Of a stretch of 64,000 nt of DNA, positions 27,579-47,201 are shown piece by piece. Source of the stretch: a plasmid; the sequence record NZ_CP033968.1, one strand, 5' to 3'. Made by a program: the position numbers and the translations under genes. Position 1 is the stretch's first letter. The number at the start of each line of letters is the position of its first letter. The notes under the pieces were generated by a model. The model made no database searches. It was not told the origin of the DNA and was given only the letters and a program-made list of their open reading frames with translations.

Positions 27579-27580
27579 AG

Positions 27581-29320: not shown

Positions 29321-29339
29321 TGATGGCGCATGGAGAAGG

Positions 29340-30485: not shown

Positions 30486-30511
30486 TGAATGGAGTTAGAT
30501 GGACTGTGTTC

Positions 30512-31578: not shown

Positions 31579-31583
31579 GCCAG

Positions 31584-32234: not shown

Positions 32235-32396
32235 CCTTGCGCGGTAGTCTGGACGCGAGAGAGATGACGAACATCCGCGAAGAATGGGTACTTGTCTCGG
32301 GTGGAGAACGAGAAGGTGGCTTCCATGTCAGCCGTTGGGGGCGCAGCAATGAGAAAACCCGGCCACGAAATGTGGCCGGGTCGGAGGGGTTACCAA

Positions 32397-33140: not shown

Positions 33141-33269
33141 GCTGGGTCTCCGTGAAAGGGGAGGTTGAAGGCCGAGATGGAAAGCCTTGTGAGGAGAAAT
33201 GGCGCACAGCTCTGCGTAGATCTGGCCGCGAAGAAGAAAAAAAGCCTCCCGGGTGTGGGAGGCTTGGGG

Positions 33270-34265
33270 TTAGATGACAAGCTCGACGGTGTCTCGATAC
33301 TTGCCAAGATTCGGTGGAGCGTCGGGCACTGCGATCGCCTTCGGACGATGAATCTGCAAGGGCGTCGTATCCACGTCAGTGAGATTGAAGTCCTTTGCAA
33401 CGGTGATTCGGAAGGACTCTTTGCCTTTGCCGCGGTACGAATCCACATCCGTGTCGGTCACTACCACGCCTTTGTCAGCAAGCAGCTTTGTGTAGTCCAC
33501 TTCGCCTTTCTTGTTGGTTCTGGATAGAAGCACGCCACAGCCTTCTCGCAGCTTTTCACCAGGTGCCAACAATGCAATGAGTGCTTCACGGGCCAACTGC
33601 TCTCGTTCCTCCAACTCGTCTCTCTCGCGCTTGATAAGGAGGTAGTGAGTCGCTGCTGCTGCCCACTCATCGGACTCCCATATCCCAGACTGTACTCGCT
33701 CCCAGAAGATGACCTCTGCGGCGACAATCTGGTCAATGCGGGCCTGATCGCGAGGCACTCGCAACAAGACGCCGTCCTGGCCGTCAAACGAGTAGTAGTT
33801 CCCGTAGTCAGCCTCAGCAACGAAAATCTGTTGCTGGACCTGGTCGACGTACTCCTCAGGCACCAGGCCGCTGAGGGCCAGTTTGTGGGCACGTTCACCA
33901 GGACACTTGACCTCGAGCGGCTCGCCCGAGAACAAGTCGAAACCGTCGAACGACGCCCGAATGAACGGGTGGACGGCACTCTCGGCGACGAGGGGGGTGA
34001 CTGTGGTGTTCGTCAGCTTCTCGTACTGCGCCCGCGCAAGAGGTTCTAGGAGTTTTCCCCGCTCGCGGATCTTCTGAAGGATGGGATTGCGTTTCGGGTC
34101 GGTACCCTTACCCGTCTTATGCTTGAAAAGCTCATAAGCGCGAGTGTAGTGCGACTTTCCCATGATGATTGGGGCATCTGATGCTCCGATGCCCTTGAAG
34201 CGCCAAGCAAGCCATTCAGGTGAGCCCTGAATAGTTGCTGGCCCTGACAGGACTTGCATTGCCAT
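33270..34265 (-). CDS. YqaJ-type viral recombination exonuclease (lambda-Exo-like PD-(D/E)XK)
   Basis: GSPEWLAWRFKGIGASDAPIIMGKS matches the YqaJ domain N-terminal signature; SD AAGGAGATCTCC ATG at 34265. Confidence 0.75.
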   Translation of the reverse strand: MAMQVLSGPATIQGSPEWLAWRFKGIGASDAPIIMGKSHYTRAYELFKHKTGKGTDPKRNPILQKIRERGKLLEPLARAQYEKLTNTTVTPLVAESAVHPFIRASFDGFDLFSGEPLEVKCPGERAHKLALSGLVPEEYVDQVQQQIFVAEADYGNYYSFDGQDGVLLRVPRDQARIDQIVAAEVIFWERVQSGIWESDEWAAAATHYLLIKRERDELEEREQLAREALIALLAPGEKLREGCGVLLSRTNKKGEVDYTKLLADKGVVVTDTDVDSYRGKGKESFRITVAKDFNLTDVDTTPLQIHRPKAIAVPDAPPNLGKYRDTVELVI

Positions 34266-34573
34266 GGAGATCTCCTTGGGGTTGCCATGCCATAGCACGG
34301 CGTCTTCGCTTGACCCAAGGAGATGTCGAACGTGTGCAGCTAAGCCGCGCTGGTGGCCAACGGAGGGCCGCGCTAGAACGGCCTAGACAATTCCGGTGAT
34401 GATGTGAGAGGCATCGACACGGCGTAACGACCGGGGCTCCTGGGCGACGAAACCCGCGCCAACGTGATCCAGGGAAAACCGTTCCCGAAGCCGGGCCGAC
34501 AGAACGAGACGTAGGGGAAGTTACTGTCCAGCAGACAGCGGAAGTATCTAGCTGGCAGAAAACGTATTTCAGA

Positions 34574-34608
34574 TTGAAAAAGCCCTCCGCTACGAATAGC
34601 GAAGGGCG
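34574..34608 (-). terminator. Rho-independent terminator (minus strand) after the lipoprotein gene
   Basis: On minus strand: GCCCTTCGCTATTCGTAGCGGAGGGC followed by TTTTTC. Confidence 0.45.
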
Positions 34609-34639
34609 TGTCTTACTTGCGCGGGCTTGCGAACGGTGC

Positions 34640-35074
34640 TTACTCCTTTAGGAAGAGCCCAGGCAGGATGCCAACTCCGGCACCCGAACGTAGCCTCTCG
34701 CAGTCTTGGCACCAGAAGGACTTCTTGTTACCCATCAACGTTGTGGTCAGCGGGTTCAGCCCAAGCACGAATGCGTCCTTACGGCTTGGCACCAAGATCA
34801 TGAACTCGTGCCCCTGGCTATCCCAACTCTTCCAGGTGACGTCGAACGTTCCGACGGACCCTGCCCATTGGCTGCTTGGGTCCTTCGTGACCTCGAGAGT
34901 TCCGGTTCCTTCCTTGGCATCACCACCGAAATTGTTGAGGGAGAGTTTCGCCGTGACACCGACAGAACTTCCCCCAAACATATTCGTCGCGGTGTACACC
35001 GCAGGCTTGTCCGAGCACGCAGAGACCCCAATGGCTCCAATGGCCACCAGCAGGGCGAGGAAGAGCTTTCTCAT
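34640..35074 (-). CDS. Lipoprotein (signal peptide with lipobox VSAC)
   Basis: MRKLFLALLVAIGAIGVSAC...; SD GGAGAAAAAATAC ATG. Confidence 0.55.
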   Translation of the reverse strand: MRKLFLALLVAIGAIGVSACSDKPAVYTATNMFGGSSVGVTAKLSLNNFGGDAKEGTGTLEVTKDPSSQWAGSVGTFDVTWKSWDSQGHEFMILVPSRKDAFVLGLNPLTTTLMGNKKSFWCQDCERLRSGAGVGILPGLFLKE

Positions 35075-35247
35075 GTATTTTTTCTCCGATAGGTTGGTTG
35101 GACGCAAGTTCATCGTCATGTCCTTGCGCGGAAGGAATGACTCACAGGAAGCCATAACTGGCGTCACGTATATGCGGTTGTCGGGCATCTCAGAGGGTCC
35201 TGCTATGCCGAATCGTCGGCACAACCTTCATTAACGGAGAGATACCC

Positions 35248-35919
35248 ATGACGCTTTACTCGAAACCATGTTCGATTCACAACCAGCTCCGGACTGGGGC
35301 TCATATGCTGAGTGGTGACGTACGCGCCTTCGTGGAGAGTCAGGCGTTCACTGATGGCTTAGTCACCGCTGAGAAGTACGATGTTGAGAAGGCCAGAATG
35401 ACCATCGCCATGCTGAAATGCGTCGCCCTGGACCCCCTGCGCGGAGCAGATCTCCATGCGTTCATCACGCAGGGGGAGGGAAAGCTTCGCTGCAACCTCG
35501 CGTTTGACCGCCTGGCAAACTTTGTGGGTTTGTTCGAGATCGATTTGGCGGCTCCGCTCGCCAAAGCACTGGTCGATGCCGTCGAACAGAACCTGCGCGG
35601 CCGAATGTTCAAAGCGGCGCAAACTAGTCGGCGTATTGAGCGTAGGTCAGTAGGCATGCTGGCAAAGGCGGCCAGGAGGGGGAATGCCGCTTATCGGGCC
35701 TCGCTTGACGCCGCCATGCCAAAAGGAGTGCTTCGCTGGAGCCCTACGCCAGAGGACTACTTCCGCGCCAACGCAGAGTTTGATCGAGCGTACGGTAATG
35801 CCAGGGAGAACATCGAGCGCCGACTTAGCGCTCTGGGCCGAGTGGCTTCGCCGGGGTTCACCGGCGGCTACACGGAAGCCGTCGCTGGATTCCTGCACAG
35901 TTACCTTTCGAGCAACTAG
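35248..35919 (+). CDS. hypothetical protein
   Basis: SD ACGGAGAGATACCC ATG; 223 aa. Confidence 0.5.
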   Translation: MTLYSKPCSIHNQLRTGAHMLSGDVRAFVESQAFTDGLVTAEKYDVEKARMTIAMLKCVALDPLRGADLHAFITQGEGKLRCNLAFDRLANFVGLFEIDLAAPLAKALVDAVEQNLRGRMFKAAQTSRRIERRSVGMLAKAARRGNAAYRASLDAAMPKGVLRWSPTPEDYFRANAEFDRAYGNARENIERRLSALGRVASPGFTGGYTEAVAGFLHSYLSSN

Positions 35920-35933
35920 GCGTTTGCAGTCCA

Positions 35934-35981
35934 TAAACAAAAAGGGCCCGCTTGTGTTACAAGCGGGCCTTCTTCTTTGTC
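35934..35981. terminator. Bidirectional Rho-independent terminator between convergent genes
   Basis: AAACAAAAAGG GCCCGCTTGTGTTACAAGCGGGC CTTCTTCTTTGT. Confidence 0.55.
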
Positions 35982-35993
35982 GGTTATCCTGGC

Positions 35994-36668
35994 CTACTGG
36001 GCAATCTTGAGATTGATAGCGCGGCTGAGTCCTTCGCTGGCGTTCACCAGCCGCAGATCGTCGAGCGTCAGTTCAGGATTGTAGGAAGCCGCCACGGAAG
36101 TCGCGCAGCTGCGGCCCACCCGGCAAACCTCATACTCCACGACGAGCACGGGCTTCTTTACGGCCGCCGCGGAGCCTGCTGCCGCAGGATCGGTAGTCGC
36201 TGGATTCTGGCTAGTGAGGTCCTTATTCACGTGGTCCAGATTCACCAGCACATCGTTGGCCATATAGCTTGGGTCGGAACAAGTGCCAAAAGCCAGGCAA
36301 AGTCCAATTGAGGCTGCGATTCCAACCCCTGTGCTCAGGCTGACTTTACCGTCTTTGCCTTGTGGTGTGTACTTGTCTGCCTCGCCGGCGTAAAGCTCGC
36401 GCACGGAGTAGCGGATGCCTGGGTCGTCGTTGGAGACGTTGTACCCAGCCGCGGCAATCTTCTGGCTTAGCTTTTCAGCTACTGCCTCTTGTCCCTCTGG
36501 AGCAGTGACCCCAACCTTGCCCGAAAAGGAGCCGAGATTGGTATTCACATGCGCAGCGATAACTCGATAGTCGTCAGTCGCAACAATTGACGGCTTTGCT
36601 GCGAATGCAGGGGAACTGCAGGCCGTGATCAGGACCGCGATGGCGGCGAAAACTCCTCGAAAGTTCAT
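35994..36668 (-). CDS. Lipoprotein (signal peptide, lipobox ITAC)
   Basis: MNFRGVFAAIAVLITACSSP...; 224 aa. Confidence 0.55.
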   Translation of the reverse strand: MNFRGVFAAIAVLITACSSPAFAAKPSIVATDDYRVIAAHVNTNLGSFSGKVGVTAPEGQEAVAEKLSQKIAAAGYNVSNDDPGIRYSVRELYAGEADKYTPQGKDGKVSLSTGVGIAASIGLCLAFGTCSDPSYMANDVLVNLDHVNKDLTSQNPATTDPAAAGSAAAVKKPVLVVEYEVCRVGRSCATSVAASYNPELTLDDLRLVNASEGLSRAINLKIAQ

Positions 36669-37617
36669 GTGACCCTCCTAGTAACACGTATGTATATTAT
36701 TGCTGGGGTTGATTGTATATGGATTGTCAAGTTTTGGGGAAGTTACCCCGGGGATGTGTGATACGACTGCGCTGTGTGAGAGCTCATAAAAAAACTGGGC
36801 TCGCGTATCACGTGAGCCCAGTCTTGAGAACATCGAACGCCGTAGCATTCGACCAAAGGGTGCCGAGGCACCGTTTCAAGACTGGGCCCATAGCTTTACC
36901 TGATTGGATTCGTCGACAGCAGTACGACGTTTCTAGGCTAGGTGTGCCTTTGCGACTCCCCACCAGTATGCACATGGCCGCTGTGTGATGGACTTTGCGT
37001 CCGGGGATAGTCATTGGCGCTTGCTCCCGTAGGGGGGAGCACTTGAGGGTTTGTATCTCTACGACCCATTCCTCCGTTGGTTCCGTGCGGAATCACGTGT
37101 TGTCCAACGCTCGGGAGACACCCGGCGTGCGACAGTTGTCGGTTCTCAGCGAATCCAGTGACCGAAGTCACGTTCATCTAAGACATCGGCGTGCATAGCC
37201 GTCGTCGAGCACACAAAACAATCACGTGGGAGGCGTTGGGGAAAGATACGCTCAAGCGGTGATGGGGCATTGCGCTGGCCCGTCACCCTAGATGACTACA
37301 AGGGAGGCGTCGCTACCTCGGATCAGCCTGGTGTCTCCAGTTCCTGCATCCGTTGAACCTTGCCCTTGGTGATGTGCAACATCCGCGCATACAGGGACTG
37401 GGCGGGTATGCCGTGTGACCTCTCCTTCTCCTTCCTTTCCTTCCTGTGCTGCAGCCTGCCTGTTCCTATCTTGCTGGGAGGGTGAGACCAGACCCGATGG
37501 GGAAGGGTGTCCGCGCCCGACCACCCACCGAAGCCGACCGGGGACAGTTGCTAATTCATGTGACTCATCTCTCCAGAGTCAAACAACAGCGGCGCTGCCG
37601 CCCCCTAGGAGCTTTGG

Positions 37618-38850: not shown

Positions 38851-38873
38851 TTCGTACTCCTTCGAGTTGAACC

Positions 38874-40061
38874 GTGCAAGCTGATATGCCGCACACGAAG
38901 GAAGAAGGGCGAGACCTGCTCCGGCAAAAAAAGCCCGCTCCGGATGAACCGGCAGCGGGCTGGGCGGGAGTCAACGGGTGTATTGTTAAAGCCGACCAAG
39001 TTCGACGCTGCCGGGCAGCGGCAAATCGGGGTGAGACCGTGATTCAGTTCCTTGCAGACCAGATAGACCAGCTCGACCTTGCTCTAGACCAGCTCGCGTT
39101 GCAGGATCGGAACTTTGACCGGTTCGCTATGATGCTGACGGACAATGTCGTCGAACTGACATTGCACCGGCATGCAGAAGACACTCGAGTACTTGAATCG
39201 GATCTGCGCCTTGGGGGCCAGACTCCAGGAATCGATCAGAAGATTGTGTCGGAAGCTTTGGGGGCGAGGTTCGACGGCAAGGTAAAGTTGGCGCGTACGA
39301 CCGGGCTGATTGATGCGGAATTGAGCGCGACGCTGCTTTATCTCCATGGTTTCCGGAATACTGCGTACCACCGCGGTGCCCGGCATGAGGGCGTTCTGCA
39401 TTCGGTTTCGCTCTTCTACGTGCGGTGCGCCTGCGAGATTCTTGCGCGGTACCAGCCCCTTGGGTGGTACTCAGCGAGCGGGGACAAGATCTCGCACCGC
39501 GCTGTGAAGTACCTTGGCTCCATGAAAGGAAAATTGCCAACCGAACCTTTCGGGCGCGCATGGGCCCAGATATCGGAAGTCGCACTGCATCTGGGGGACA
39601 GGCTCGTAGCTGATCTGCACTGCGACATGCAGAAGACTATAGAGACGTTCGCCGAAAGCCTGGGATTGCTTGCGCAGTACCCTGAGCCTGGTGGTACACC
39701 GCGCAGCACTGTGATCATTGAGAGTCAGGTGTGGCACGTTGCCTTTTCGTCCGTGGGGGAAGACTATGCTCGAGTCCACGGTGGACCGACGTCGCCGTCG
39801 GCTGACTACGTGCGCTGGATAGAAGCCAACTTCCCATGGATCGACCGCGTTGACCCGGTTCCGTCGTGGCGAAGGCGAGCCGCCACACTCGCGAAGGAAA
39901 AGAATCCGCATTCGGCCGTTAAGAAGTACTGCGACTTCATGCGGCAGTCTGAAATGTTGCGTGAAGCGATCGATGCGGCTGCTGCTCAGCTCAACGCCCA
40001 TCTGAACAACCTGGTGGATTCGTACCTCGAAGAACAGGCTCTTCAGCGAGGGAAGCCGTGA
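38874..40061 (+). CDS. hypothetical protein (start uncertain)
   Basis: 395-aa ORF; no recognisable domain. Confidence 0.45.
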   Translation: MQADMPHTKEEGRDLLRQKKPAPDEPAAGWAGVNGCIVKADQVRRCRAAANRGETVIQFLADQIDQLDLALDQLALQDRNFDRFAMMLTDNVVELTLHRHAEDTRVLESDLRLGGQTPGIDQKIVSEALGARFDGKVKLARTTGLIDAELSATLLYLHGFRNTAYHRGARHEGVLHSVSLFYVRCACEILARYQPLGWYSASGDKISHRAVKYLGSMKGKLPTEPFGRAWAQISEVALHLGDRLVADLHCDMQKTIETFAESLGLLAQYPEPGGTPRSTVIIESQVWHVAFSSVGEDYARVHGGPTSPSADYVRWIEANFPWIDRVDPVPSWRRRAATLAKEKNPHSAVKKYCDFMRQSEMLREAIDAAAAQLNAHLNNLVDSYLEEQALQRGKP

Positions 40062-40098
40062 AGGAAAAAAATGAAAACGCCCCTTCGGAAAGGGGCGT
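40062..40098 (-). terminator. Rho-independent terminator closing the minus-strand small-gene array
   Basis: On minus strand: CGCCCCTTTCCGAAGGGGCG followed by TTTTCATTTTTTT. Confidence 0.5.
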
Positions 40099-40110
40099 CA
40101 CAGCGGTTGA

Positions 40111-40284
40111 TTAAGCATCCTGAGCGGCGTCGCGCATCAGTGAAGTGGCCTCAGCGTACGAGAGCCCATTGTCACGATAGTAGAGCGCACCCTGATGGAT
40201 GGCGCCGTCGTGGCTGTAGCCTTCCTTGCGGTACTCGAGATACTTGTCGGTTGCCCGAGCGAGCTGTTCGAGGGTGAACTGCAT
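40111..40284 (-). CDS. unlisted small ORF, 57 aa (MQFTLEQLARATDKYLEYRKEGYSHDGAIHQGALYYRDNGLSYAEATSLMRDAAQDA)
   Basis: Hand-translated; SD GAGGCAGAA ATG; directly followed by the terminator; below the 60-aa ORF-track cutoff. Confidence 0.35.
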   Translation of the reverse strand: MQFTLEQLARATDKYLEYRKEGYSHDGAIHQGALYYRDNGLSYAEATSLMRDAAQDA

Positions 40285-40332
40285 TTCTGCCTCACTTGGT
40301 GGTGCGTTGCAAAGCGCCGCGAGAACGACGGA

Positions 40333-40605
40333 CTAGAGTTGATATGCGATTGCCTGACGCAGGGCAGAGGCGTCCATGTAGGCGCCATGCTTCGCGATGT
40401 AGCGGCCGATTGCTACGTCCAGCTTGACTACTTTCAGCTTTCGCATGCTGTTCAATGCTCTGAACGCTTCTTCGCGAGTGCATCCCGTGATCTCCTGTAC
40501 TGTTTCCACGAAGTTCTCTTCAGCGTTCGCAATGCGTTGGGCGACGGGTTTCGCTCCAGGGAGCCGTGCGTTCTGGTGCATACCTGCCTTGGCCTTAGCG
40601 GTCAT
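40333..40605 (-). CDS. hypothetical protein
   Basis: 90 aa; start overlaps stop of 40605..40823. Confidence 0.4.
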   Translation of the reverse strand: MTAKAKAGMHQNARLPGAKPVAQRIANAEENFVETVQEITGCTREEAFRALNSMRKLKVVKLDVAIGRYIAKHGAYMDASALRQAIAYQL

Positions 40606-40823
40606 CAGATGCCGCCTCCGTACCCAAGCTGGGACATGATCCAGTCGCAGACAAAGCGGCGCTTCACCTGATCAGCTTTCAGCTCCGAGTCCTCACCTGC
40701 TTCACGAATCACCACCGCTGCAATGTCACCGCGCGTGCGATCGTGGCCGACGGTAGGCAAAGAGCGAACAACTGCGCTGAAGACTCGCTTGCCCGCCGTT
40801 GCCTTGACTGCGTCAAAGTCCAT
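40605..40823 (-). CDS. hypothetical protein
   Basis: 72 aa. Confidence 0.4.
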   Translation of the reverse strand: MDFDAVKATAGKRVFSAVVRSLPTVGHDRTRGDIAAVVIREAGEDSELKADQVKRRFVCDWIMSQLGYGGGI

Positions 40824-40885
40824 TTCTTTCCTTTGTGTTTCGACCGCAACGGCGGCCGTCGCATATGCCTGGTTGTCGATAATCG

Positions 40886-41116
40886 TCAGATCACTTGCCC
40901 ATGAAGAGCTTGAACCTCGCGATAGTTGTTGGCCATGTCATGAAGCCAGCACACCTTGATGCGTAGATCGTCCGATGAGGGAGACACGTCCCACTCAACA
41001 AGGCTGTAGCAATGCCCGCCTTCATCGAACACTCGTGCTTCTGAACTTCCCATGGAGATGCGGTTGAACCCCTTGTTTCTAAGAAATTTCTGAACGCGCT
41101 TCCCGTTTGCGGTCAT
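40886..41116 (-). CDS. hypothetical protein
   Basis: SD AGGGAAAGAACG ATG; 76 aa; stable hairpin CGCCCGCCGAAGCGGGCGGG just upstream (41150-41169). Confidence 0.4.
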   Translation of the reverse strand: MTANGKRVQKFLRNKGFNRISMGSSEARVFDEGGHCYSLVEWDVSPSSDDLRIKVCWLHDMANNYREVQALHGQVI

Positions 41117-41175
41117 CGTTCTTTCCCTTGAATGTTGTGTTGTTCCATCGCCCGCCGAAGCGGGCGGGTCGGGTG

Positions 41176-41373
41176 CTAGATCTTGCGAACGGTACCGCTC
41201 GCGATGTTCCAGCCGTTAGGCGCGAAACCTTTGCGGTTTCCCCACTTGTCGCTTTCGATGAAGGAGCCGTCGTTCAGGTTGAACTGCTCGCCGCCATCCT
41301 GCAGCGGCTTTACGCTGCGAGAGTTGGCGCGAAGAAACGTGCTGGATTTCAAGATGAAGTCTTTGGCCTGCAT
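41176..41373 (-). CDS. small hypothetical protein
   Basis: SD GAAGGGAATCGAGAA ATG; 65 aa. Confidence 0.4.
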   Translation of the reverse strand: MQAKDFILKSSTFLRANSRSVKPLQDGGEQFNLNDGSFIESDKWGNRKGFAPNGWNIASGTVRKI

Positions 41374-41414
41374 TTCTCGATTCCCTTCGCCCGGGTTTGC
41401 GGGCAGATTTGTGG

Positions 41415-41954
41415 TTAGCGTTCCGCGGATTCGCCGTCGATCTCGAAGCAATATGGGTTGCTCTCGTCCGTGGAGACTTCCGCGAGGATCGGCTCGCCGT
41501 TAGGCCATGAACCAAGGTTGGCGGAGTTGCCTTGAATACGGTCGAGCAACTTGATTGCTTCCGCCTTGCTGGTGGCCTTGACGCGCACCGCGCAGGACAG
41601 CCGTACATCAAACGCGTACTCGTGAATCTCTGTCGTAGTACCGATGGTCACCGGGTCCGTCGACATGTCGGTCAGTGCGGTCGCAAAGTAGTGACCGTAT
41701 GCCAGCGGATCGGGGTCACTTGGCATCGAAACCAGGAATAGCAGTTCATCGCATTTGGCCAATCCGTTGACCTCCATGCCGACGGCTGCAATGGAGACCC
41801 GTTGGCCGCGGTACTTCTCCAGGTTGGGCAGCTTCTGAATTGCCTCGTCAGAGAAACGAGCCGATTTGAGACTGGCAGCAAATGCAGCTGCCTTGCTCGG
41901 GTCCTTGAAAATGCTGTCTGCTCCGCAGACGAGTTTGTTGCGGGCTTCTGCCAT
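41415..41954 (-). CDS. hypothetical protein
   Basis: SD CAAGAGGAGAGATCC ATG (inside duplicated cassette A); 179 aa. Confidence 0.5.
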   Translation of the reverse strand: MAEARNKLVCGADSIFKDPSKAAAFAASLKSARFSDEAIQKLPNLEKYRGQRVSIAAVGMEVNGLAKCDELLFLVSMPSDPDPLAYGHYFATALTDMSTDPVTIGTTTEIHEYAFDVRLSCAVRVKATSKAEAIKLLDRIQGNSANLGSWPNGEPILAEVSTDESNPYCFEIDGESAER

Positions 41955-42060
41955 GGATCTCTCCTCTTGAAGGTTGGACTTGCATGAGGCAATGAGACAC
42001 AGGCAAGACTATGTGCCAGCGGAAAGGAAAACGCCCCTCACTGGCTGGCCAGGAGGGGCG
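41951..42060 (-). repeat. Duplicated terminator-promoter-5'UTR cassette, copy A
   Basis: CATGGATCTCTCCTCTTGAAGGTT..CTTGCA..AGGCAATGAGACACAGGC..GACT ... CCCCTCACTGGCTGGCCAGGAGGGG is nearly identical to 42729-42840. Confidence 0.6.
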
Positions 42061-42082
42061 GGGGAGTTGGGAGGTCAGAGCA

Positions 42083-42253
42083 TCAAGCCGTGTTGGAGGG
42101 CTGGTCGACGCAGAGCTCCTCGAAAGCCGGGCAGCTTTCAACTTCATCTACGTCTTCGGTTGGCCAGTTCTTCGAGCACTGGCTCAACTCTCCAGGCCTG
42201 TACGTGCAGTGCGCGCAGGTCGCGCACAGATCATCATCGGAAATTGAGCGCAT
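42083..42253 (-). CDS. unlisted small Cys-rich ORF, 56 aa (MRSISDDDLCATCAHCTYRPGELSQCSKNWPTEDVDEVESCPAFEELCVDQPSNTA)
   Basis: Hand-translated; excellent SD AAGGAGACGAGAAAA ATG; ends just before the terminator hairpin of cassette A. Confidence 0.4.
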   Translation of the reverse strand: MRSISDDDLCATCAHCTYRPGELSQCSKNWPTEDVDEVESCPAFEELCVDQPSNTA

Positions 42254-42285
42254 TTTTCTCGTCTCCTTGCGTGGTGTTCCGTGGT

Positions 42286-42510
42286 TCAGTGGCCGCCGAG
42301 TAGCGCGGGTTGTGGTTCGGCAGTGAGGCTAGCCTTGTATTGACGGGCAAGCTTGAGGCTGTACGACGCGTTCGCCCGTGTTCTGTCCGCCAGCCAGGTT
42401 CCGGCCAGTTGGCCGCGCGCCCGGTGGATGCGAGCCCAGCGGGCGAGATATCGAGCGTCACGTACGAGCCACTCAATAGCCTCGCGGATTTCAGCCTGAG
42501 TCATGGTCAT
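42286..42510 (-). CDS. hypothetical protein
   Basis: 74 aa; start overlaps stop of 42507..42731. Confidence 0.4.
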   Translation of the reverse strand: MTMTQAEIREAIEWLVRDARYLARWARIHRARGQLAGTWLADRTRANASYSLKLARQYKASLTAEPQPALLGGH

Positions 42511-42731
42511 CCCCTTGCCTGGTGACCCGGCTCAGACTTGCCCAGGTTGATGAGCGCCGCGCGAAGCTCGTTGTGGTCCATGCGGTTGATAGCTACTTGT
42601 GCCTCGATCTTCCGCTCCAGCGGCAAGAGCGCGTGGATGTTCGCCTTCAAAACCTTGCGCGCCGTTTCGCAGAATTTGATGGCGTCCAGGCCTGCTTGGT
42701 TCGGACTGTGTTGGCTGGGGATTTGTGGCAT
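42507..42731 (-). CDS. hypothetical protein
   Basis: SD CAAGAGGAGAGATCC ATG (inside cassette B); 74 aa. Confidence 0.4.
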   Translation of the reverse strand: MPQIPSQHSPNQAGLDAIKFCETARKVLKANIHALLPLERKIEAQVAINRMDHNELRAALINLGKSEPGHQARG

Positions 42732-42840
42732 GGATCTCTCCTCTTGAAGGTTTATCTTGCAAGAGGCAATGAGACACAGGCGGGACTAAGCGTAGACGGG
42801 AAGGGAAGAAAAACCCCTCACTGGCTGGCCAGGAGGGGGT
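42729..42840 (-). repeat. Duplicated terminator-promoter-5'UTR cassette, copy B
   Basis: See copy A. The inverted repeat CCCCTC-ACTGGCTGGCCAG-GAGGGG followed (minus strand) by a T-rich run forms an intrinsic terminator. Confidence 0.6.
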
Positions 42841-42845
42841 GGAGG

Positions 42846-43235
42846 CTAGTTGGCAGGTACGATCCGGAGCGTGAAGGTATCCGGAAGCTTTCGCCCGAGG
42901 ATGACGGAGGCGCACTGTCGGAATCGCTCCGACCAGGCTCCGGTTGTTCGGCGCCCGCTAGGTGCGCAGATCTTCCAGGCAGTTTCAATCTGGTCGTGCT
43001 GATCCTGAGTGACTTCGATGATCGAAGCGATTTCCTTCTCAATCCACGCGTCCGCAACTTCCACAGCGCGGCAGCGCGATGATTCGGTTCCCGCCGCGAC
43101 CCAGTCGCCGCCGATTTCGCCTAGGACTTCAAACGTGCCAAGGATTCTGTTGGACGGTACGGCATGGATTACGCGAACGACGATTTCGCCCTCGACGCGC
43201 GAATACACTTCAGTTCGCTCTACTTGGTTCGGCAT
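42846..43235 (-). CDS. hypothetical protein
   Basis: 129 aa; ends 6 nt before cassette B. Confidence 0.45.
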   Translation of the reverse strand: MPNQVERTEVYSRVEGEIVVRVIHAVPSNRILGTFEVLGEIGGDWVAAGTESSRCRAVEVADAWIEKEIASIIEVTQDQHDQIETAWKICAPSGRRTTGAWSERFRQCASVILGRKLPDTFTLRIVPAN

Positions 43236-43350
43236 CAGTTACTCCCTACGGGTTGGTTTGCAGAGGAGTAATGCGGCGCATGTGGGAATAACCGCGGTGC
43301 CGTAGTCGCGGGCAGGGGCACGCTGATGTGCAGGTGCCCGCAGGGCGGAC

Positions 43351-43620
43351 CTATCCATTGCTTCCACTGAACGGATTGGGTGCAACTCCCGGGGGTGCCA
43401 CGGCAACTTGATCTGGCAACGGCCCGGCCTCGAGCGAAGCGACAATCAGGTCGAGGTTTGCTTTCAATGCCTTTGCCATGCTGAGGCCCGCTTTGTCCCT
43501 TGTCAGGTCTAAGCTTCCATAGATGGATACGCGATCAAGGCGGTTCTCGATGGTCATCTCGCCGATGGCTACGACCTCGGACTCGTTTGCAAACGGGCTG
43601 AGCGTTTGTGAGGTGGACAT
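43351..43620 (-). CDS. small hypothetical protein
   Basis: SD AAAGGATCTGAG ATG; 89 aa; start overlaps stop of 43622..44221. Confidence 0.4.
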   Translation of the reverse strand: MSTSQTLSPFANESEVVAIGEMTIENRLDRVSIYGSLDLTRDKAGLSMAKALKANLDLIVASLEAGPLPDQVAVAPPGVAPNPFSGSNG

Positions 43621-43621
43621 C

Positions 43622-44221
43622 TCAGATCCTTTGTTCGGCCTTGCCGAGCTTTGGGGCGATCGCCTTTGCCTTGGCGACAACGTTGGTCCCGGGAATGAAG
43701 TCGTGCAGGAACTGGCCGTTTGCACTCATCAGGGGGATGAGAAGCAGCAGGCCAGCCACTGCAGCGAGGAAAGCCGGCGAAGCGATGAAGAGGAGGCAAG
43801 TCAGGGTAACCACCTTCATCGCACTTCGCAGCAGAATTTCCCCAAAGCGCAGCTTTCGGTCGGCCGCGCTGCGCGTGGCCAGTCGGAACAGCCACTTGCC
43901 GGGAGTTCCTTCCATCCGCAGCTTGGCAAACATTGATTCGTAGGCCCACCAGATGGCGGGGAGGCCGGCCATCACGTATGGCGCGATACCTCGCGCGATC
44001 GCTTCGTACCAGGCAAAAGTCAGGTGGTCAGCAGGCACACCCGCAAAGATCACCTGCAGCTGCTCGGCTGACGGCATATCCATCATCATCGCCGCTATCC
44101 ACGCTGCACCGATGGTTGCTGCGGCCACTACCGCTGCGAGGATACATGCATCTACGGCATTTGCGCCCAGCCGCCTACTGATGAGCAGGACCCTTGGCAG
44201 GACGTTTCGTTTCGTGATCAT
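43622..44221 (-). CDS. multi-pass membrane protein (RDD-family-like)
   Basis: 199 aa, 4-5 hydrophobic helices; start overlaps the nuclease gene stop. Confidence 0.4.
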   Translation of the reverse strand: MITKRNVLPRVLLISRRLGANAVDACILAAVVAAATIGAAWIAAMMMDMPSAEQLQVIFAGVPADHLTFAWYEAIARGIAPYVMAGLPAIWWAYESMFAKLRMEGTPGKWLFRLATRSAADRKLRFGEILLRSAMKVVTLTCLLFIASPAFLAAVAGLLLLIPLMSANGQFLHDFIPGTNVVAKAKAIAPKLGKAEQRI

Positions 44222-45075
44222 TGGGAATTTCCTATCGCGTGAGTAGTTGTGCTGCCCGGGAAAAGGTCTTTCAGGACCCGCTCGGCAGATTTTTCGATCC
44301 CCCGATCCGATCTGCCGCGGAGTTCGGGGCGGGGGAGGGGGAGCTTCGATGCCTTGGCTTCTGCCGGCAAACTTGGGAAGAAGACCAAGCCGGCCATCGC
44401 TTCAAGCTCAGGGAGTGAGACGACCTCGTAGGCTGTCCCGGGTTCGTTGTTGACAACGTAGGCCGCTCCCTTCTGTGCGGCTGGGTCGAAGACGACCTTG
44501 AAAATTCGGTCCGGGACCAGGACGCGCCCATTGAGCTGTTTGACCTTGGCGCCGGTGAAGAGTGGGCCGGTGATGACATAGAGCGAGCCGCGACGCTCGA
44601 CAAGGTTGCGGACAGCCATCTCGATTCCGGCAAAAAGGTGGCGGTTGTTGTCCGGGTCCTGAGCGACGATGTTGCTGAGTGTGAAGCTCTCATACCGGGC
44701 CTCGGGAGTGCTCATGTCGCCACTTGGGGCGAGGTGACCTCGGTCTAGCCCCGACCGTGCAAAGTCCGCTAGTTCGGCGCGGTCCTTGGATGGGAGGCGC
44801 GAATCAGGGTGAAACGCGTCCGCCCGCTGCAGCGATCGGGCGGCGCGAATACGCGAAGGCGTGAGATGTTCCGCCGACCAGATAGCCGCACGGCTTAGGG
44901 GCGAATGCATGACGGCGAACTCGGTAAAGCAGAGCTCCGTAGCGCCCTGCGCCAGGCGGGCGTTTGCGACGATAGGAGCCGTGCCCTGGTAGTAGCTTCG
45001 CGCGCAGGCTGGGTCTTGGGCGTACCCCGGGATTGCCAGCACGCACAGCAGGGCGGCGAGCAGGTGCGATTTCAT
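44218..45075 (-). CDS. Secreted non-specific DNA/RNA endonuclease (Serratia nuclease/EndoG family, DRGH motif)
   Basis: Signal peptide MKSHLLAALLCVLAIPGYAQ; catalytic SGLDRGHLAPSGD; start overlaps VRR-NUC stop (ATGA). Confidence 0.75.
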   Translation of the reverse strand: MKSHLLAALLCVLAIPGYAQDPACARSYYQGTAPIVANARLAQGATELCFTEFAVMHSPLSRAAIWSAEHLTPSRIRAARSLQRADAFHPDSRLPSKDRAELADFARSGLDRGHLAPSGDMSTPEARYESFTLSNIVAQDPDNNRHLFAGIEMAVRNLVERRGSLYVITGPLFTGAKVKQLNGRVLVPDRIFKVVFDPAAQKGAAYVVNNEPGTAYEVVSLPELEAMAGLVFFPSLPAEAKASKLPLPRPELRGRSDRGIEKSAERVLKDLFPGSTTTHAIGNSQ

Positions 45076-45587
45076 CGTAATCTGGTCCTCTTTGGCGGCT
45101 CGTACACAGTGCAAGGAGAGATCCCCTGGCCAATGCGTGCAGGAATGAAGTTGGCAAGTTGAGATGCGTCATCGACCCAGCCGGCCAATCCTCCGTTCTG
45201 CGCCACGTTCTGAAGGAATGCCCATTGATCGTCGGTGGGCTCCTTTCCCGGGCGCTTCACTTCCACAGCGAAGAATCGACCATCTTTCAGTTGTCCGACG
45301 ATGTCTGAGACGCCAGGGATAGAGAACCGGACAAAGCGCTTCTGATCCCCTTCGCCGTACACAGCCACGCCTGTGTTCATGCGCATGACCCAAGCAACGC
45401 TGGGATGCTGCTCGAGCAGCTCCATGCATGCCAGCAGTACTTTGGTTTCGCGCGGCGACGGCGGATCGGTCGGCTTCGCTCTCGCCGCCCGCTTCGTGGG
45501 CTTCTCCTGGGGAACCACCGGCGTGCTGGTCTTCTGAGCACGACCGAGCAGCGCCTCGTACTCCTTCTCGCTGAGCCGTTTTCCCAT
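45072..45587 (-). CDS. VRR-NUC domain PD-(D/E)XK nuclease
   Basis: GVSDIVGQLKDGRFFAVEVKRPGKEPTDDQWAFL fits the VRR-NUC signature (D...E.K...Q). Confidence 0.65.
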   Translation of the reverse strand: MGKRLSEKEYEALLGRAQKTSTPVVPQEKPTKRAARAKPTDPPSPRETKVLLACMELLEQHPSVAWVMRMNTGVAVYGEGDQKRFVRFSIPGVSDIVGQLKDGRFFAVEVKRPGKEPTDDQWAFLQNVAQNGGLAGWVDDASQLANFIPARIGQGISPCTVYEPPKRTRLR

Positions 45588-45589
45588 TG

Positions 45590-46180
45590 CTAGCCGAACA
45601 TGTCGCCAAGTTTTTCCAGTGCTTCGAGCGCTACGGGGTCGATGCTCTGGGGGCTCGCCGGCGCCGGATGCGCGGCTGGGACGGTTCCAGGGTTTGCGGC
45701 AACGGCAATGGCAGGGGGCACGATCGTGGCAGGCGTTTCCGCTTCCTCCATACCCTGCGCGAGAAGTGGTTGGATGGGCTCGACCACTGTTTCGCGCAAG
45801 GGTGGTGGTTGCTCCGCCGGCGCCTCTGCTACCGGAGACGGGGTAGCAGGACGGGCAGCCGGCCGGGCTGAAATTGCGCGGGGCTTCAGCACCCTGGCAG
45901 AGCGTCCCTTGGCGCCTCGGCGCACCTGCTTGTCGTGCGGTGCGGATTCGATGAGACCCCCGGGACCAGCCAGTGCCTCCTCAATGGCGTCATCCAATGT
46001 TCCTGCATCCCGGTGCTTGATGAACCACTGATACAGGACGCCCCGGATGAGAGGGGTTTCGGTCCGGTATGGCATTTCTGCGAGGAACTCCAGAGCCCCG
46101 GGGCAGGTTGCCTCCGCGATCACCAGGTTGATGCGCCGCTCCGGTTCGTCTGGGTCGAACACCCGGATGAGCTTAGGCAT
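45590..46180 (-). CDS. hypothetical protein directly downstream of the ParM-like gene (possible ParR-like adaptor; N-terminal RINLVI beta-strand-helix, Pro/Ala-rich tail)
   Basis: 196 aa; start overlaps the ParM-like stop by 8 nt; position equivalent to parR in parMR operons. Confidence 0.4.
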   Translation of the reverse strand: MPKLIRVFDPDEPERRINLVIAEATCPGALEFLAEMPYRTETPLIRGVLYQWFIKHRDAGTLDDAIEEALAGPGGLIESAPHDKQVRRGAKGRSARVLKPRAISARPAARPATPSPVAEAPAEQPPPLRETVVEPIQPLLAQGMEEAETPATIVPPAIAVAANPGTVPAAHPAPASPQSIDPVALEALEKLGDMFG

Positions 46181-47201
46181 CTACGGTTTCCTGTTGGCTC
46201 TGCCGCTTCATCGCTTGGCGCAGCGCCACGCCCATGCCGTAACGGCCGAAGCCATTGGCTACTGACATGCGGGGGTTGTCAAGGAGAATGCAGTGCGACC
46301 ACTTCTTCTTGATTTCCTCATAGAGCAGCGGGGCGCCACCGCCGGCCAGGATCACGCCGTGCAACTTCCGCACGTCCATGGACAGCAAGGAGTCGGCCTT
46401 GGCGTTGATCTTCTGGGCAACGTGCGAGACCGCCTTTGCAACTTCTTCGGAGATGTCGATTTCTTGACCAAACTGCAAAATCGATTTGGTCCGGATCGCG
46501 GTTTCGCACTCGATGAGATTCGAGTGAATCCCGCGGCCATCGAGAATGCGTACCAGATGCTCCGCGGCGAAATTCAGCCCTTCGCATGTGCCGGCGCCGC
46601 GTTCAACGTACTGCCCTTCGAGCATCAGCAGAAAGTCGGTCGTGAAGTGGCCGACTTCGATGACAGCCCAACTCTTCGTCCGCCCGGATGCGTCAGTGAT
46701 ATGACTCCGGATCGGGAGCCCCTTTTCGTCGAGGTAGAAGTCGCAATACGCGCCCATCGGTTGGGGCAGGACCCGCATCTCGGCCTTAACGACACGTTCC
46801 GTGACCTCTTTGAGCCGAGCTTGCTGGGAAGAGAACAAGTTCGCTGGGGTACCGATCACCAGAAGCGGCTTGTCGAGGCCCGGAACCCCCATGGCTTCAA
46901 AGCGCTTCATGGTCGAGGCGACCAACACCTGGTACTCGGGGGTGTTGATCCAGTCGTTCGACAGGCCGGCATTGGCGCCGGGGCTGCCCTGCAACCGAGC
47001 AGTGTCGCCCGTGAAGAACTGCTTTCCCTCGATTTCGACGGTTTCGATGGCGGCTCGTCGAGCGGTCGTCTCGTCGGAGATCCCGATGGCGGGCGAGACG
47101 ATGGAGGGGAAGGTGAGGGGGTAGGACTCGCCTTGGGCAAAGGCGACGGCCTTGACGGCGCTACGGCCCACGTCGAGGCCAATGATGGTTTGGGTCAGCA
47201 T
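46173..47201 (-). CDS. Actin-like ATPase of the ParM/StbA family (type II segregation or phage actin)
   Basis: N-terminal phosphate-1 motif IIGLDVGRSAVKAV, later actin-fold motifs (VIEVGHFTTD, ILAGGGAPL); start at internal ATG 47201. Confidence 0.65.
   Translation of the reverse strand: MLTQTIIGLDVGRSAVKAVAFAQGESYPLTFPSIVSPAIGISDETTARRAAIETVEIEGKQFFTGDTARLQGSPGANAGLSNDWINTPEYQVLVASTMKRFEAMGVPGLDKPLLVIGTPANLFSSQQARLKEVTERVVKAEMRVLPQPMGAYCDFYLDEKGLPIRSHITDASGRTKSWAVIEVGHFTTDFLLMLEGQYVERGAGTCEGLNFAAEHLVRILDGRGIHSNLIECETAIRTKSILQFGQEIDISEEVAKAVSHVAQKINAKADSLLSMDVRKLHGVILAGGGAPLLYEEIKKKWSHCILLDNPRMSVANGFGRYGMGVALRQAMKRQSQQETVDA

What the first reader, a model, noticed from the sequence alone, without database searches (positions are those of the whole stretch)
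40062..43235. Minus-strand array of ~11 tiny genes punctuated by a duplicated terminator-promoter-RBS cassette
Two ~110-bp segments (41951-42060 and 42729-42840) are near-identical. Each supplies an intrinsic terminator (CCCCTC-ACTGGCTGGCCAG-GAGGGG plus T-rich run) for the upstream gene, and a 5' UTR with the SD CAAGAGGAGAGATCC for the downstream gene. The genes they serve are unrelated in sequence. Modular re-use of an expression cassette for small (55-180 aa) genes is reminiscent of anti-defence or early-gene islands of plasmids and phages. Several genes are translationally coupled.
Basis: seen in the sequence. Interest (0 to 1): 0.65.

Follow-up and report, generated by a model that had tools for sequence, protein, structure and literature searches.

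The report
Repeated terminator plus plasmid-wide promoter-like motif
The two repeated segments are real, but their conserved core is not a private duplication: it is one of more than 30 copies of a gene-proximal control motif spread over this Cupriavidus megaplasmid and its relatives in other genera, most likely a special promoter that restarts expression after each terminator.

Summary
The repeat is real. Segments 41951-42060 and 42729-42840 (minus strand) are 82.5% identical, with an identical 25-nt hairpin. The window is a pMOL30-type Cupriavidus conjugative megaplasmid.

Each copy has three parts:
- a strong hairpin with a U-tract, i.e. a terminator-like site;
- a ~45-bp conserved core;
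- a 16-nt leader with a Shine-Dalgarno sequence (SD) and ATG.

The ten small genes are unrelated to each other and match no known family, including defence models. The array is the variable tail of a conserved parM-nuclease-RDD operon, about 100 kb from the ssb/transfer region. The anti-defence or early-gene reading therefore has no support.

The main new result concerns the core. It belongs to a plasmid-wide motif family, cTTA-N6-CnTGTnnCGCATnTC-N5-GCAAG, with at least 33 copies. All 33 lie 13-63 nt upstream of an SD and start codon on the same strand, and 19 of 33 follow a terminator-like site. The family also occurs on pMOL30 and on Burkholderia, Caballeronia, Methylibium, Pseudomonas and Rubrivivax megaplasmids. 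It fits none of the sigma-70, sigma-54, sigma-32 or sigma-28 spacings and has no consensus RNA fold.

The best reading is a terminator plus a dedicated promoter or operator plus a ribosome-binding site. A conserved 381-aa protein with a weak sigma-region-2 resemblance and two HTH domains is a tentative candidate factor. No start-site data were available, so the promoter function is inferred, not shown.

The parts
42806..42840 (-). Cassette B terminator-like hairpin (10 bp with one bulged U, loop CCAG) followed by UUUUUCUU. It begins 5-6 nt after the TAG stop of the 129-aa gene.
   Evidence: dG -17.9 kcal/mol
42748..42790 (-). Cassette B copy of the plasmid-wide motif (cTTAgtcccg CCTGTGTCTCATTGCCTCTTGCAAGATAAACCT). 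Proposed promoter/operator. Its 5' half is also complementary to the SD/AUG region.
   Evidence: (PWM 36.1; leave-out score 23.3)
42729..42747 (-). Cassette B leader with SD (AAGAGGAGAGA) and the ATG of the 74-aa gene
42021..42060 (-). Cassette A terminator-like hairpin (12 bp with a bulge) followed by UUUUCCUUUCC. It begins 22 nt after the TGA stop of the Cys-rich 56-aa ORF.
   Evidence: dG -23.7 kcal/mol
41971..42013 (-). Cassette A copy of the plasmid-wide motif (caTAgtcttg CCTGTGTCTCATTGCCTCATGCAAGTCCAACCT)
   Evidence: PWM 35.8; leave-out score 27.0
41952..41970 (-). Cassette A leader with SD and the ATG of the 179-aa gene
43250..43292 (-). Third, more diverged motif copy in the 89-aa/129-aa intergenic region (gTTAttccca CATGCGCCGCATTACTCCTCTGCAAACCAACCC). 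It has no terminator upstream.
   Evidence: PWM 23.6; leave-out score 12.2, within the chance range for a genome-wide maximum but correctly placed and oriented
38865..38907 (-). Motif copy upstream of the 111-aa gene (38515-38850), preceded by a terminator-like site
   Evidence: (PWM 31.7; leave-out score 25.9)
42846..43235 (-). 129-aa gene. No family hits; found only in 4 Cupriavidus plasmids.
42507..42731 (-). 74-aa gene served by cassette B. A 64%-identical homologue elsewhere has an unrelated upstream region.
42286..42510 (-). 74-aa gene, start overlapping the stop of the previous gene (translational coupling)
42083..42253 (-). 56-aa Cys-rich ORF (CxxCxxC...C...C). Absent from the PLSDB gene table but conserved in Ni-2.
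41415..41954 (-). 179-aa gene served by cassette A. Its C-terminal ~75 aa form a widespread small domain of unknown function.
40111..41373 (-). Five further small genes: 65 aa (41176-41373), 76 aa (40886-41116), 72 aa (40605-40823), 90 aa (40333-40605), 57 aa (40111-40284). They lie within a 3.7-kb segment (38034-41766) that is absent from the Ni-2/EM10 plasmids.
40076..40099 (-). Canonical intrinsic terminator ending the array
43351..47201 (-). Conserved upstream operon: ParM-like actin (46173-47201), 196 aa, VRR-NUC, NucA-type endonuclease, RDD protein, 89 aa. The small-gene array is its variable tail.
29340..30485 (-). 381-aa conserved backbone protein with a weak sigma-region-2 resemblance and two Xre-type HTH domains. 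Tentative cognate factor of the motif family. It is the last gene of an operon headed by a motif copy at 33178-33210.
10354..37589. Other motif copies in the window with an SD and start called downstream (first base of the 33-nt site, strand). Plus strand: 10354, 20568, 22272, 23191, 23783, 24669, 25825, 27138, 28239, 35177, 37557. Minus strand: 33210, 34334, 35148. For 35148- the script's start call (35113) is wrong; the real start is 35074 by direct reading.
   Evidence: 18 of 21 window hits with score >=9 are followed by an SD and a start codon

Best explanation
Each segment is a composite intergenic module in a long minus-strand operon of a pMOL30/pBVIE01-type conjugative megaplasmid. It has three parts.

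1. An intrinsic-terminator-like hairpin with a U-tract closes the upstream unit. This is shown in silico only.

2. A ~45-bp element follows. It is one copy of a plasmid-wide family with consensus cTTA-N6-CnTGTnnCGCATnTC-N5-GCAAG(G/T)C.A.CC. I infer that this is a dedicated, non-sigma-70 promoter/operator that restarts transcription, with the start site near GCAAG. That would give the 25-30-nt leaders typical of this host. A plasmid-encoded factor may read it; the conserved 381-aa sigma-2-like/HTH protein at 29340-30485 is a tentative candidate.

3. A short leader carries a strong SD and the ATG.

In A and B, and in about half of the family, the 5' half of the element is complementary to the gene's own SD/AUG. 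I further infer that transcripts reading through the terminator fold so as to hide the ribosome-binding site, whereas transcripts started inside the element lack that arm and are translatable. The module would then insulate each gene both transcriptionally and translationally. This last step is speculative.

A and B are the most similar pair because one was copied from the other, terminator and first codons included, before the BS1/MJ1-type and Ni-2-type plasmids diverged.
For: Repeat and hairpins.

Family membership:
- An nhmmer profile of the 4 cassette alleles gave weak hits that all lay just upstream of gene starts.
- PWM scans found 36 sites with score >=8 on the 347-kb plasmid, against 1-5 in Markov-1 controls.
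- 33 of 33 sites with score >=11 are followed within 13-63 nt by an SD, a start codon and an ORF of at least 40 aa on the same strand. The figure for random positions is 13.8%.
- With A, B and their neighbours left out of training, A scores 27.0 and B 23.3. The maxima in ten random plasmids were 10.5-21.7.

Conservation across genera, with the same placement: pMOL30, B. vietnamiensis pBVIE01 and Caballeronia, Methylibium (12 hits in 21 kb against 0.25 expected), Pseudomonas and Rubrivivax.

In favour of a promoter:
- 19 of 33 copies have a hairpin with a T-run within 110 nt upstream, against 5.6% of random positions. Some T-runs start only 13-14 nt from the first motif column, abutting the cTTA box, which leaves no room for a separate promoter.
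- Back-to-back divergent pairs occur 28-29 nt apart in the window, in Ni-2 and in Methylibium.
- RNAalifold finds no consensus structure in 21 members.
- In long-leader members a small hairpin follows GCAAGG, as expected for an mRNA 5' end.

In favour of SD occlusion:
- The SD is predicted unpaired with probability 0.08 (g74a) and 0.18 (g179).
- Duplex energy between each 5' block and its own initiation region is -10.58, against -9.18 +/- 0.40 for permuted pairs, P about 0.0005.

Candidate factor.
Against: - No transcription start has been observed. The one relevant TSS dataset (CH34 pMOL30; PMC7563307, Table S3) is truncated in the held copy.
- The motif fits no sigma-70, sigma-54, sigma-32 or sigma-28 geometry (and direct reading).
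- An ECF-like TGTnnC-N16-GTC reading leaves the best-conserved block, GCATnTC, in the spacer. The GTC is also poorly conserved in pBVIE01.
- The sigma resemblance of the 381-aa protein is sub-threshold: NCBIfam E 6e-4 to 1e-3 with bit scores far below the cut-offs, hhalign probability 6%, and a PDB profile search that finds only Cro/C1-type HTH domains.
- tblastn with E. coli RpoE and RpoD finds no sigma gene on the plasmid.
- The PWM was refined on its own hits, so the site counts are somewhat optimistic.
- The single changes in A (5' arm) and A' (3' arm) weaken the SD hairpin without compensation.
Confidence: 0.5

Rival explanations
1. The element is an RNA leader, not a promoter. It would be transcribed as part of polycistronic or read-through mRNA and act as a translational operator or stability/processing signal. 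Its 5' half would sequester the SD/AUG until a trans-acting protein or RNA, recognising the conserved GCAUnUC or GCAAG/CAACC blocks, opens or closes it. The upstream hairpin would then act mainly as a 3' stabiliser or partial attenuator.
For: - In A and B a ~19-bp imperfect hairpin pairs the core with the SD and AUG. Whole-cassette z-scores are -3.0 to -3.8, and the SD is among the least accessible in the operon.
- Each 5' block pairs better with its own initiation region than with others, P about 0.0005.
- The element keeps a short distance to the SD, and a CAACC/A-rich tract travels with the SD in long-leader members.
- No canonical promoter hexamers are present.
Against: - RNAalifold predicts no shared structure (0 pairs) for 21 members, and fixed-column covariation is at noise level.
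- About half the members have only weak own-pairing, -4 to -8 kcal/mol.
- Terminators abut the element in several copies, and divergent back-to-back pairs leave no room for a separate upstream promoter.
- No complementary trans-RNA candidate was found on the plasmid.
- There is no Rfam match.
Confidence: 0.27
2. The repeat marks a leading-region or early-gene island, possibly anti-defence. The hairpins would act in the transferred single strand as Frpo/ssi-like promoters, so that the small genes are expressed first in the recipient.
For: - The array consists of many tiny ORFan genes in one orientation on a conjugative plasmid.
- One motif copy precedes the gene next to ssb (record 242177).
Against: - The array lies about 100 kb from ssb, rdgC, the coupling protein and the tra genes, on the other side of the replication region.
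- Motif copies occur on both strands all around the backbone.
- The hairpin stems are about 20 bp, too short to hold -35 and -10 boxes, and are absent from many members.
- No ArdA, KlcA, Ocr, PsiB or other known family matches.
Confidence: 0.05
3. The similarity is only a neutral relic of a local duplication or recombination event, for example a boundary sequence used for module exchange, with no regulatory function of its own.
For: - The similarity extends about 15 nt upstream of the hairpin and about 20 nt into both ORFs.
- Cassette A sits at a mosaic junction. Window 41767-42075 is only 82.6% identical to Ni-2, whereas the flanks are 97-98% identical. It is bordered by a 3.7-kb indel and a 244-bp indel.
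Against: - The non-coding core is better conserved than the adjacent coding DNA.
- Both copies are kept in every related plasmid.
- The same motif, with the same invariant positions and the same placement, recurs at more than 30 unrelated genes and in other genera.
Confidence: 0.08

Closest known systems
Plasmid- or ICE-wide regulons with a shared promoter/operator box (e.g. AcaCD boxes of IncC plasmids, SetCD boxes of SXT/R391, KorA/KorB operators of IncP-1; named from my own knowledge)
   Same: - One short DNA motif recurs upstream of many backbone genes of a conjugative element.
- It is conserved among related elements in different hosts.
- It co-occurs with a conserved element-encoded DNA-binding protein.
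   Different: - The motif sequence is unrelated and not palindromic.
- It lies unusually close to the start codon and at a nearly fixed distance from it.
- It is often directly preceded by a terminator.
- The factor is unidentified.
ECF-sigma regulons (autoregulated sigma factor plus bipartite -35/-10 promoters)
   Same: - The motif is bipartite to tripartite and strand-specific, and leaders would be short.
- The candidate factor shows a weak region-2 resemblance (DVDEVLQRV..FF / AVYAVVYAIAxNV).
- That gene lies in an operon headed by a motif copy, which would allow autoregulation.
   Different: - There is no AAC-type -35 box and no CGT-type -10 box at the canonical 16-17-nt spacing.
- The best-conserved block would fall in the spacer.
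- The candidate protein has two Xre-type HTH domains instead of a region 4.
- It fails all curated sigma cut-offs.
Phage 'morons' and synthetic insulated expression units (terminator-promoter-RBS-gene)
   Same: Each small gene is bracketed by its own terminator upstream and its own expression signals, and neighbouring genes are unrelated.
   Different: The expression signal here is one shared family-type element rather than an individual sigma-70 promoter. Several genes between the modules are still translationally coupled.
Frpo/ssi single-strand promoters of plasmid leading regions
   Same: These are repeated non-coding elements with hairpin potential upstream of small plasmid genes.
   Different: - The element here is far shorter, about 45 bp against about 300 nt.
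- No -35/-10 boxes lie in a stem.
- Copies occur on both strands and all over the backbone, not clustered next to oriT.

Membership tests
Intrinsic (Rho-independent) terminator | Stable GC-rich hairpin immediately followed by a U-rich tract, downstream of a stop codon | tested here: met
   dG is -23.7 (A) and -17.9 (B) kcal/mol, followed by UUUUCCUUU or UUUUUCUU. The stop codon lies 22 nt (A) or 5-6 nt (B) upstream. The stem is kept in the Ni-2 alleles despite loop and stem-end changes.
Intrinsic (Rho-independent) terminator | Transcripts actually end there | not testable with these tools
   Needs Term-seq or 3'-RACE.
Sigma-70 promoter | TTGACA-like and TATAAT-like hexamers 16-18 nt apart | tested here: not met
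   0 promoter-like sites in 39500-44000 on either strand. Reading the family consensus gives no hexamer pair with a usable spacing.
Sigma-54 promoter | GG-N10-GC (TGGCAC-N5-TTGC) | tested here: not met
   Cassette A has TGGCAC-N6-TTGC, which is the wrong spacing. It is absent from B and from the family consensus.
ECF-sigma-type promoter | -35 (..AAC) and -10 (CGT/GTC) boxes 16-17 nt apart, plus a cognate sigma encoded nearby | tested here: inconclusive
   TGTnnC-N16-GTC is present in many Cupriavidus copies, but the GTC is weak in pBVIE01 and the strongest block, GCATnTC, lies between the two boxes. The candidate 381-aa protein has only sub-threshold sigma hits.
Frpo/ssi single-strand promoter of a leading region | Long hairpin carrying -35/-10 boxes; location next to oriT; a single orientation | tested here: not met
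   Stems are about 20 bp and absent from many members. Copies occur on both strands. The array is about 100 kb from ssb and the tra genes.
Structured cis-regulatory RNA (Rfam family or SD-sequestering leader) | Conserved secondary structure with covariation | tested here: inconclusive
   No Rfam match. RNAalifold gives 0 pairs for 21 members. However, A, B and about half the members can occlude their own SD, and own-versus-cross pairing gives P about 0.0005.
Integron gene cassette / attC | RYYYAAC ... GTTRRRY imperfect palindrome at the 3' end of each cassette, with an integrase nearby | tested here: not met
   GTCCAAC fits RYYYAAC in some copies only. There is no partner box and no intI nearby. 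The element is tied to gene 5' ends.
MITE/REP-type dispersed repeat | Terminal inverted repeats, and insertion without regard to gene starts or orientation | tested here: not met
   33 of 33 copies are co-oriented with a start codon and 13-63 nt upstream of it. Only the motif positions are conserved, not a whole unit.
Anti-defence / leading-region protein families (ArdA, KlcA/ArdB, Ocr, PsiB, SSB) | Sequence or fold match to a known family | tested here: not met
   No Pfam, PHROGs or PADLOC hit for the ten proteins. The C-terminal domain of the 179-aa protein was modelled at pLDDT 90 and has no PDB match.

The most novel reading that the evidence does not exclude
The motif family and the conserved 381-aa sigma-2-like/double-HTH protein may together form an undescribed plasmid-encoded transcription system. 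It would be a private promoter class driving dozens of backbone genes in a megaplasmid family that spans Cupriavidus, Burkholderia, Caballeronia, Ralstonia, Methylibium, Rubrivivax and Pseudomonas. The terminator-element-SD modules would work as natural insulators: read-through transcripts would be translationally silent, and element-initiated transcripts would be active.
Probability: 0.25. Interest if true: 0.8.

Novelty: new variant of a known kind. Interest (0 to 1): 0.55.

Why it matters
pMOL30/pBVIE01-type megaplasmids carry metal-resistance, catabolic and symbiosis traits, yet most of their backbone genes are 'hypothetical' and their regulation is unknown.

A single conserved control element in front of more than 30 backbone genes, shared across genera, would have several uses:
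- It defines a regulon that can be read directly from sequence.
- It gives correct start codons and operon boundaries.
- It points to one conserved protein as a testable master factor.
- It offers a compact natural terminator-promoter-RBS part for engineering Cupriavidus and Burkholderia.

The result also shows that the finding as first framed, an anti-defence island with a private duplicated cassette, is not the right picture.

Tried and rejected
- **Rfam.** Gathering thresholds on the whole window and E<=5 on 39.5-44 kb gave nothing relevant.
- **More cassette copies.**
  - BLAST against plasmids found only 4 Cupriavidus plasmids with 2 copies each, and the phage collection gave no match.
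  - The genome contigs and metagenome scans returned the same plasmid lineage plus chance hits in Azospira and two metagenome contigs.
- **Trans-acting complement.** No complement or sRNA candidate to the core was found on the plasmid.
- **Standard promoter geometries.** Sigma-70, sigma-54, sigma-32 (CTTGAA-N13-14-CCCCAT) and sigma-28 geometries do not fit the spacing. This rests on direct reading.
- **Other readings of the motif.** I considered and rejected three:
  - a promoter on the opposite strand;
  - a 6-codon mini-ORF on the opposite strand, because ATG...TAA is in frame in only about half the copies;
  - attC-like boxes.
- **Covariation.** Fixed-column covariation between the motif and the translation-initiation region was at noise level, and RNAalifold gave no structure.
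- **TSS data.** The pMOL30 rows of Maertens et al. 2020 (PMC7563307), Table S3, are truncated in the held copy. The paper reports TAnAAT promoters on pMOL30 and no plasmid sigma factor.
- **Literature.** Two searches found no description of the motif.
- **Proteins.**
  - The full-length 179-aa model was poor, pLDDT 46.
  - Its C-terminal domain modelled well but has no PDB fold match.
  - The homologue of g74a elsewhere lacks the cassette.
- **Sigma factor on the plasmid.** tblastn with RpoE and RpoD against the plasmid found nothing.
- **Analogous repeats in relatives.** No similar duplicated intergenic repeat exists in the tail of the pBVIE01 or Caballeronia operons.

Full report
**Where the window comes from.** Region 39800-43500 is 100% identical to two conjugative megaplasmids: C. 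metallidurans NZ_CP037902.1 (364 kb) and C. campinensis MJ1 NZ_CP043439.1 (347 kb; MOBP relaxase, MPF_F transfer system, rep_cluster_332). It has no phage match. The window also holds parA/parB/repA and many backbone genes shared with pMOL30 of strain CH34. The CH34 genome paper notes that about 60 kb of the pMOL30 backbone resembles pBVIE01 of B. vietnamiensis G4 (PMC2864759).

**Checking the observation.** The two segments are real direct repeats on the minus strand.
Weaker similarity continues about 15 nt upstream of the hairpin and about 20 nt into both ORFs.
- The hairpin, the core and the SD block each occur exactly twice in the window and never in shuffles.
- Each hairpin (10-12 bp with one bulged U, loop CCAG) folds at -17.9 or -23.7 kcal/mol and is followed by a U-rich tract. 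The undisputed terminator at the end of the array folds at -17.0.
- The consensus scanner missed both hairpins because of the bulge.
- Ten ORFs of 56-179 aa fill 40111-43235. All have coding-type codon-position GC and an SD. None resembles another.
- Stop/start overlaps link g74a to g74b and g72 to g90, and link most genes of the upstream operon.

**Surroundings.**
- The array is the tail of a minus-strand operon: ParM-like actin, a 196-aa protein, VRR-NUC, a NucA-type endonuclease, an RDD protein and an 89-aa protein.
- That five-gene head is conserved at about 60% amino-acid identity in pBVIE01 and in Caballeronia and Burkholderia plasmids. There it is followed by different genes, so the tail is variable.
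- Compared with the Ni-2 and EM10 plasmids, the window carries an extra 3.7 kb (38034-41766). Ni-2 keeps only a truncated 77-aa remnant of the 179-aa gene.
- The window also lacks a 74-aa gene that sits just upstream of cassette A' in Ni-2.
- The cassette-A segment is 82.6% identical between the two plasmid types, whereas the flanks are 97-98% identical. Cassette A therefore lies at a mosaic junction.
- The transfer genes, coupling protein, ssb and rdgC lie at record 237-276 kb. The array lies at 15-18.5 kb, on the other side of the replication region.

**The proteins.**
- Pfam, PHROGs and PADLOC give no significant hit for any of the ten.
- The 129-aa and 74-aa proteins are confined to this plasmid lineage. 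The one distant homologue of the 74-aa protein has a completely different upstream region.
- The C-terminal ~75 residues of the 179-aa protein form a widespread small domain: 614 cluster representatives at E<=1e-3.
- That domain models with confidence (pLDDT 90) but has no PDB match. The full-length model was poor.
- Nothing supports an anti-defence role.

**What the conserved core is.** This is the main result.
- Searches for further cassette copies found only the same plasmid lineage.
- A profile of the four cassette alleles, however, gave weak hits elsewhere on the MJ1 plasmid. Every one lay just upstream of a gene start in the right orientation.
- Aligning them exposed a shared motif. Iterated position-weight-matrix (PWM) scans then found 36 sites with score >=8 on the plasmid, against 1-5 in Markov-1 controls.
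- The consensus is cTTA-N6-CnTGTnnCGCATnTC-N5-GCAAG(G/T)C.A.CC.
- All 33 sites with score >=11 are followed within 13-63 nt by an SD, a start codon and an ORF of at least 40 aa on the same strand. Only 13.8% of random positions are.
- With A, B and their two neighbours excluded from training, A scores 27.0 and B 23.3. Both exceed the maxima of ten random plasmids, 10.5-21.7.
- The window holds 21 hits. They include a third, diverged copy in front of the 129-aa gene (43250-43292; leave-out score 12.2, within the chance range for a genome-wide maximum but correctly placed and oriented) and one in front of the 111-aa gene at 38865-38907.
- The same motif, placed in the same way, occurs on pMOL30, Ni-2, pBVIE01 and Caballeronia.
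- It also occurs on distant syntenic megaplasmid loci of Methylibium petroleiphilum (12 hits in 21 kb against 0.25 expected), Pseudomonas and Rubrivivax.
- TGTnnnGCATnTC is the most conserved block across genera.

**Promoter or RNA leader?**

Evidence for a DNA-level promoter or operator:
- 19 of 33 copies have a hairpin with a T-run within 110 nt upstream, against 5.6% of random positions. The distance varies, and some T-runs start only 13-14 nt from the first motif column, abutting the cTTA box. Terminator then element then SD is therefore the plasmid's general gene-boundary design, and without a restart many of these genes would be silenced.
- Divergent gene pairs carry two back-to-back elements 28-29 nt apart in the window (35148-/35177+), in Ni-2 and in Methylibium. 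That leaves no space for separate promoters.
- RNAalifold finds no consensus structure in 21 members, and fixed-column covariation is at noise level.
- In long-leader members a small hairpin follows GCAAGG and a CAACC tract stays with the SD, as expected if transcripts begin near GCAAG. Leaders would then be 25-30 nt, matching the 26-nt mode reported for CH34 (PMC7563307).

Evidence against a standard promoter:
- The motif fits none of the sigma-70, sigma-54, sigma-32 or sigma-28 geometries (direct reading).
- An ECF-like reading leaves the best-conserved block in the spacer.

Evidence for an RNA role:
- In A and B the 5' half of the element pairs with the SD and AUG, and the SD is predicted unpaired with probability only 0.08 and 0.18.
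- Across the family each 5' block pairs better with its own initiation region than with others: -10.58 against -9.18 +/- 0.40 kcal/mol, P about 0.0005. Only about half the members contribute to this.

The two lines can be reconciled. If transcription starts downstream of that arm, only read-through transcripts would hide the ribosome-binding site. This is my inference and has not been tested.

**A candidate factor.**
- pMOL30 is reported to encode no sigma factor (PMC7563307). tblastn with RpoE and RpoD found none on the MJ1 plasmid.
- The conserved 381-aa backbone protein at window 29340-30485 is the last gene of an operon headed by a motif copy at 33178-33210.
- Its residues 81-152 give sub-threshold NCBIfam matches to three ECF-sigma models, E 6e-4 to 1e-3.
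- hhalign matches E. coli RpoE region 2 at 31% identity over 45 columns, but with probability of only 6%.
- It has two Xre-type HTH domains.
- A profile search of PDB sequences finds only Cro/C1-type HTH domains.
- Its orthologues occur on exactly the megaplasmids where I found the motif.
- This is a lead, not a result.

**Verdict.**
- The terminator and the ribosome-binding site are supported.
- A promoter is likely, but of a non-canonical, family-wide type.
- The anti-defence or early-gene island reading is unsupported.
- The cassette's core is a member of an apparently undescribed regulatory motif family, conserved across genera, on pMOL30/pBVIE01-type megaplasmids. No Rfam family matches it, and nothing turned up in two literature searches.
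- Its function rests on position, conservation and architecture. No start-site or expression data were available.

Noticed in passing
window 29340-30485 (-): A 381-aa conserved backbone protein, identical in pMOL30. It has a weak sigma-70 region-2 resemblance (sub-threshold ECF model hits; hhalign to RpoE residues 41-85) and two Xre-type HTH domains. Orthologues occur on Burkholderia, Caballeronia, Ralstonia, Pseudomonas, Methylibium and Rubrivivax megaplasmids in conserved synteny, after two ~94-aa genes.
   Followed up: partly
window 10354-43292 (21 sites); plasmid NZ_CP043439.1 genome-wide: A plasmid-wide motif, cTTA-N6-CnTGTnnCGCATnTC-N5-GCAAG, lies 13-63 nt upstream of the SD and start codon of at least 33 genes. 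These include genes next to ssb, the coupling-protein operon, the lambda-exonuclease gene and a VWA-domain gene. Many of the downstream ORFs begin ATGAATCAGCA (MNQQ).
   Followed up: yes
window 35116-35209: Two motif copies lie back-to-back on opposite strands, 28 nt apart, between divergent genes. The same 29-30-nt offset between site starts (28-29 nt between the sites) recurs in Ni-2 (L003 3118-/3147+) and Methylibium (L026 12011-/12041+). The minus-strand gene probably starts at 35074 (MRKLFLALLVA..., signal-peptide-like), not at the annotated upstream start.
   Followed up: partly
window 41415-41639 (-): The C-terminal ~75 aa of the 179-aa protein (HEYAFD...RVKA...ANLGxWPDGxPILAEVS...EIDGE) form a widespread stand-alone or fused small domain with 614 cluster representatives. 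AlphaFold gives pLDDT 90, there is no PDB fold match, and Pfam has no entry. pMOL30 keeps a truncated copy (Rmet_6050).
   Followed up: partly
window 38034-41766 and 42075-42089: Two indels relative to the Ni-2/EM10 plasmids. The window has an extra 3.7-kb segment carrying a plus-strand 395-aa gene, a further minus-strand ORF (38097-38384), the 111-aa gene, six small array genes and most of the 179-aa gene. It also lacks a 74-aa gene that in Ni-2 is translationally coupled to the Cys-rich ORF. The cassette-A segment between the two indels is far more diverged (82.6%) than the flanks (97-98%).
   Followed up: partly
window 42083-42253 (-): A 56-aa Cys-rich ORF (C-x2-C-x2-C ... C ... C ... C) with a good SD. 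It is conserved in Ni-2 (59 aa) but missing from the PLSDB gene table. It may be a small zinc-binding protein.
   Followed up: no
window 41996-42012 (-): Cassette A alone contains TGGCAC-N6-TTGC, a near sigma-54 box with a spacing one nt too long. It is absent from cassette B and from the Ni-2 A' copy, so it is probably fortuitous.
   Followed up: yes
window 1-64000 versus NZ_CP043439.1: The window is not collinear with the MJ1 plasmid along its whole length. Its first bases map inside an IS66-family element of MJ1, and there is a 1-nt offset between the 33-kb and 42-kb regions. The source is therefore a close relative (possibly NZ_CP037902.1) rather than MJ1 itself.
   Followed up: no
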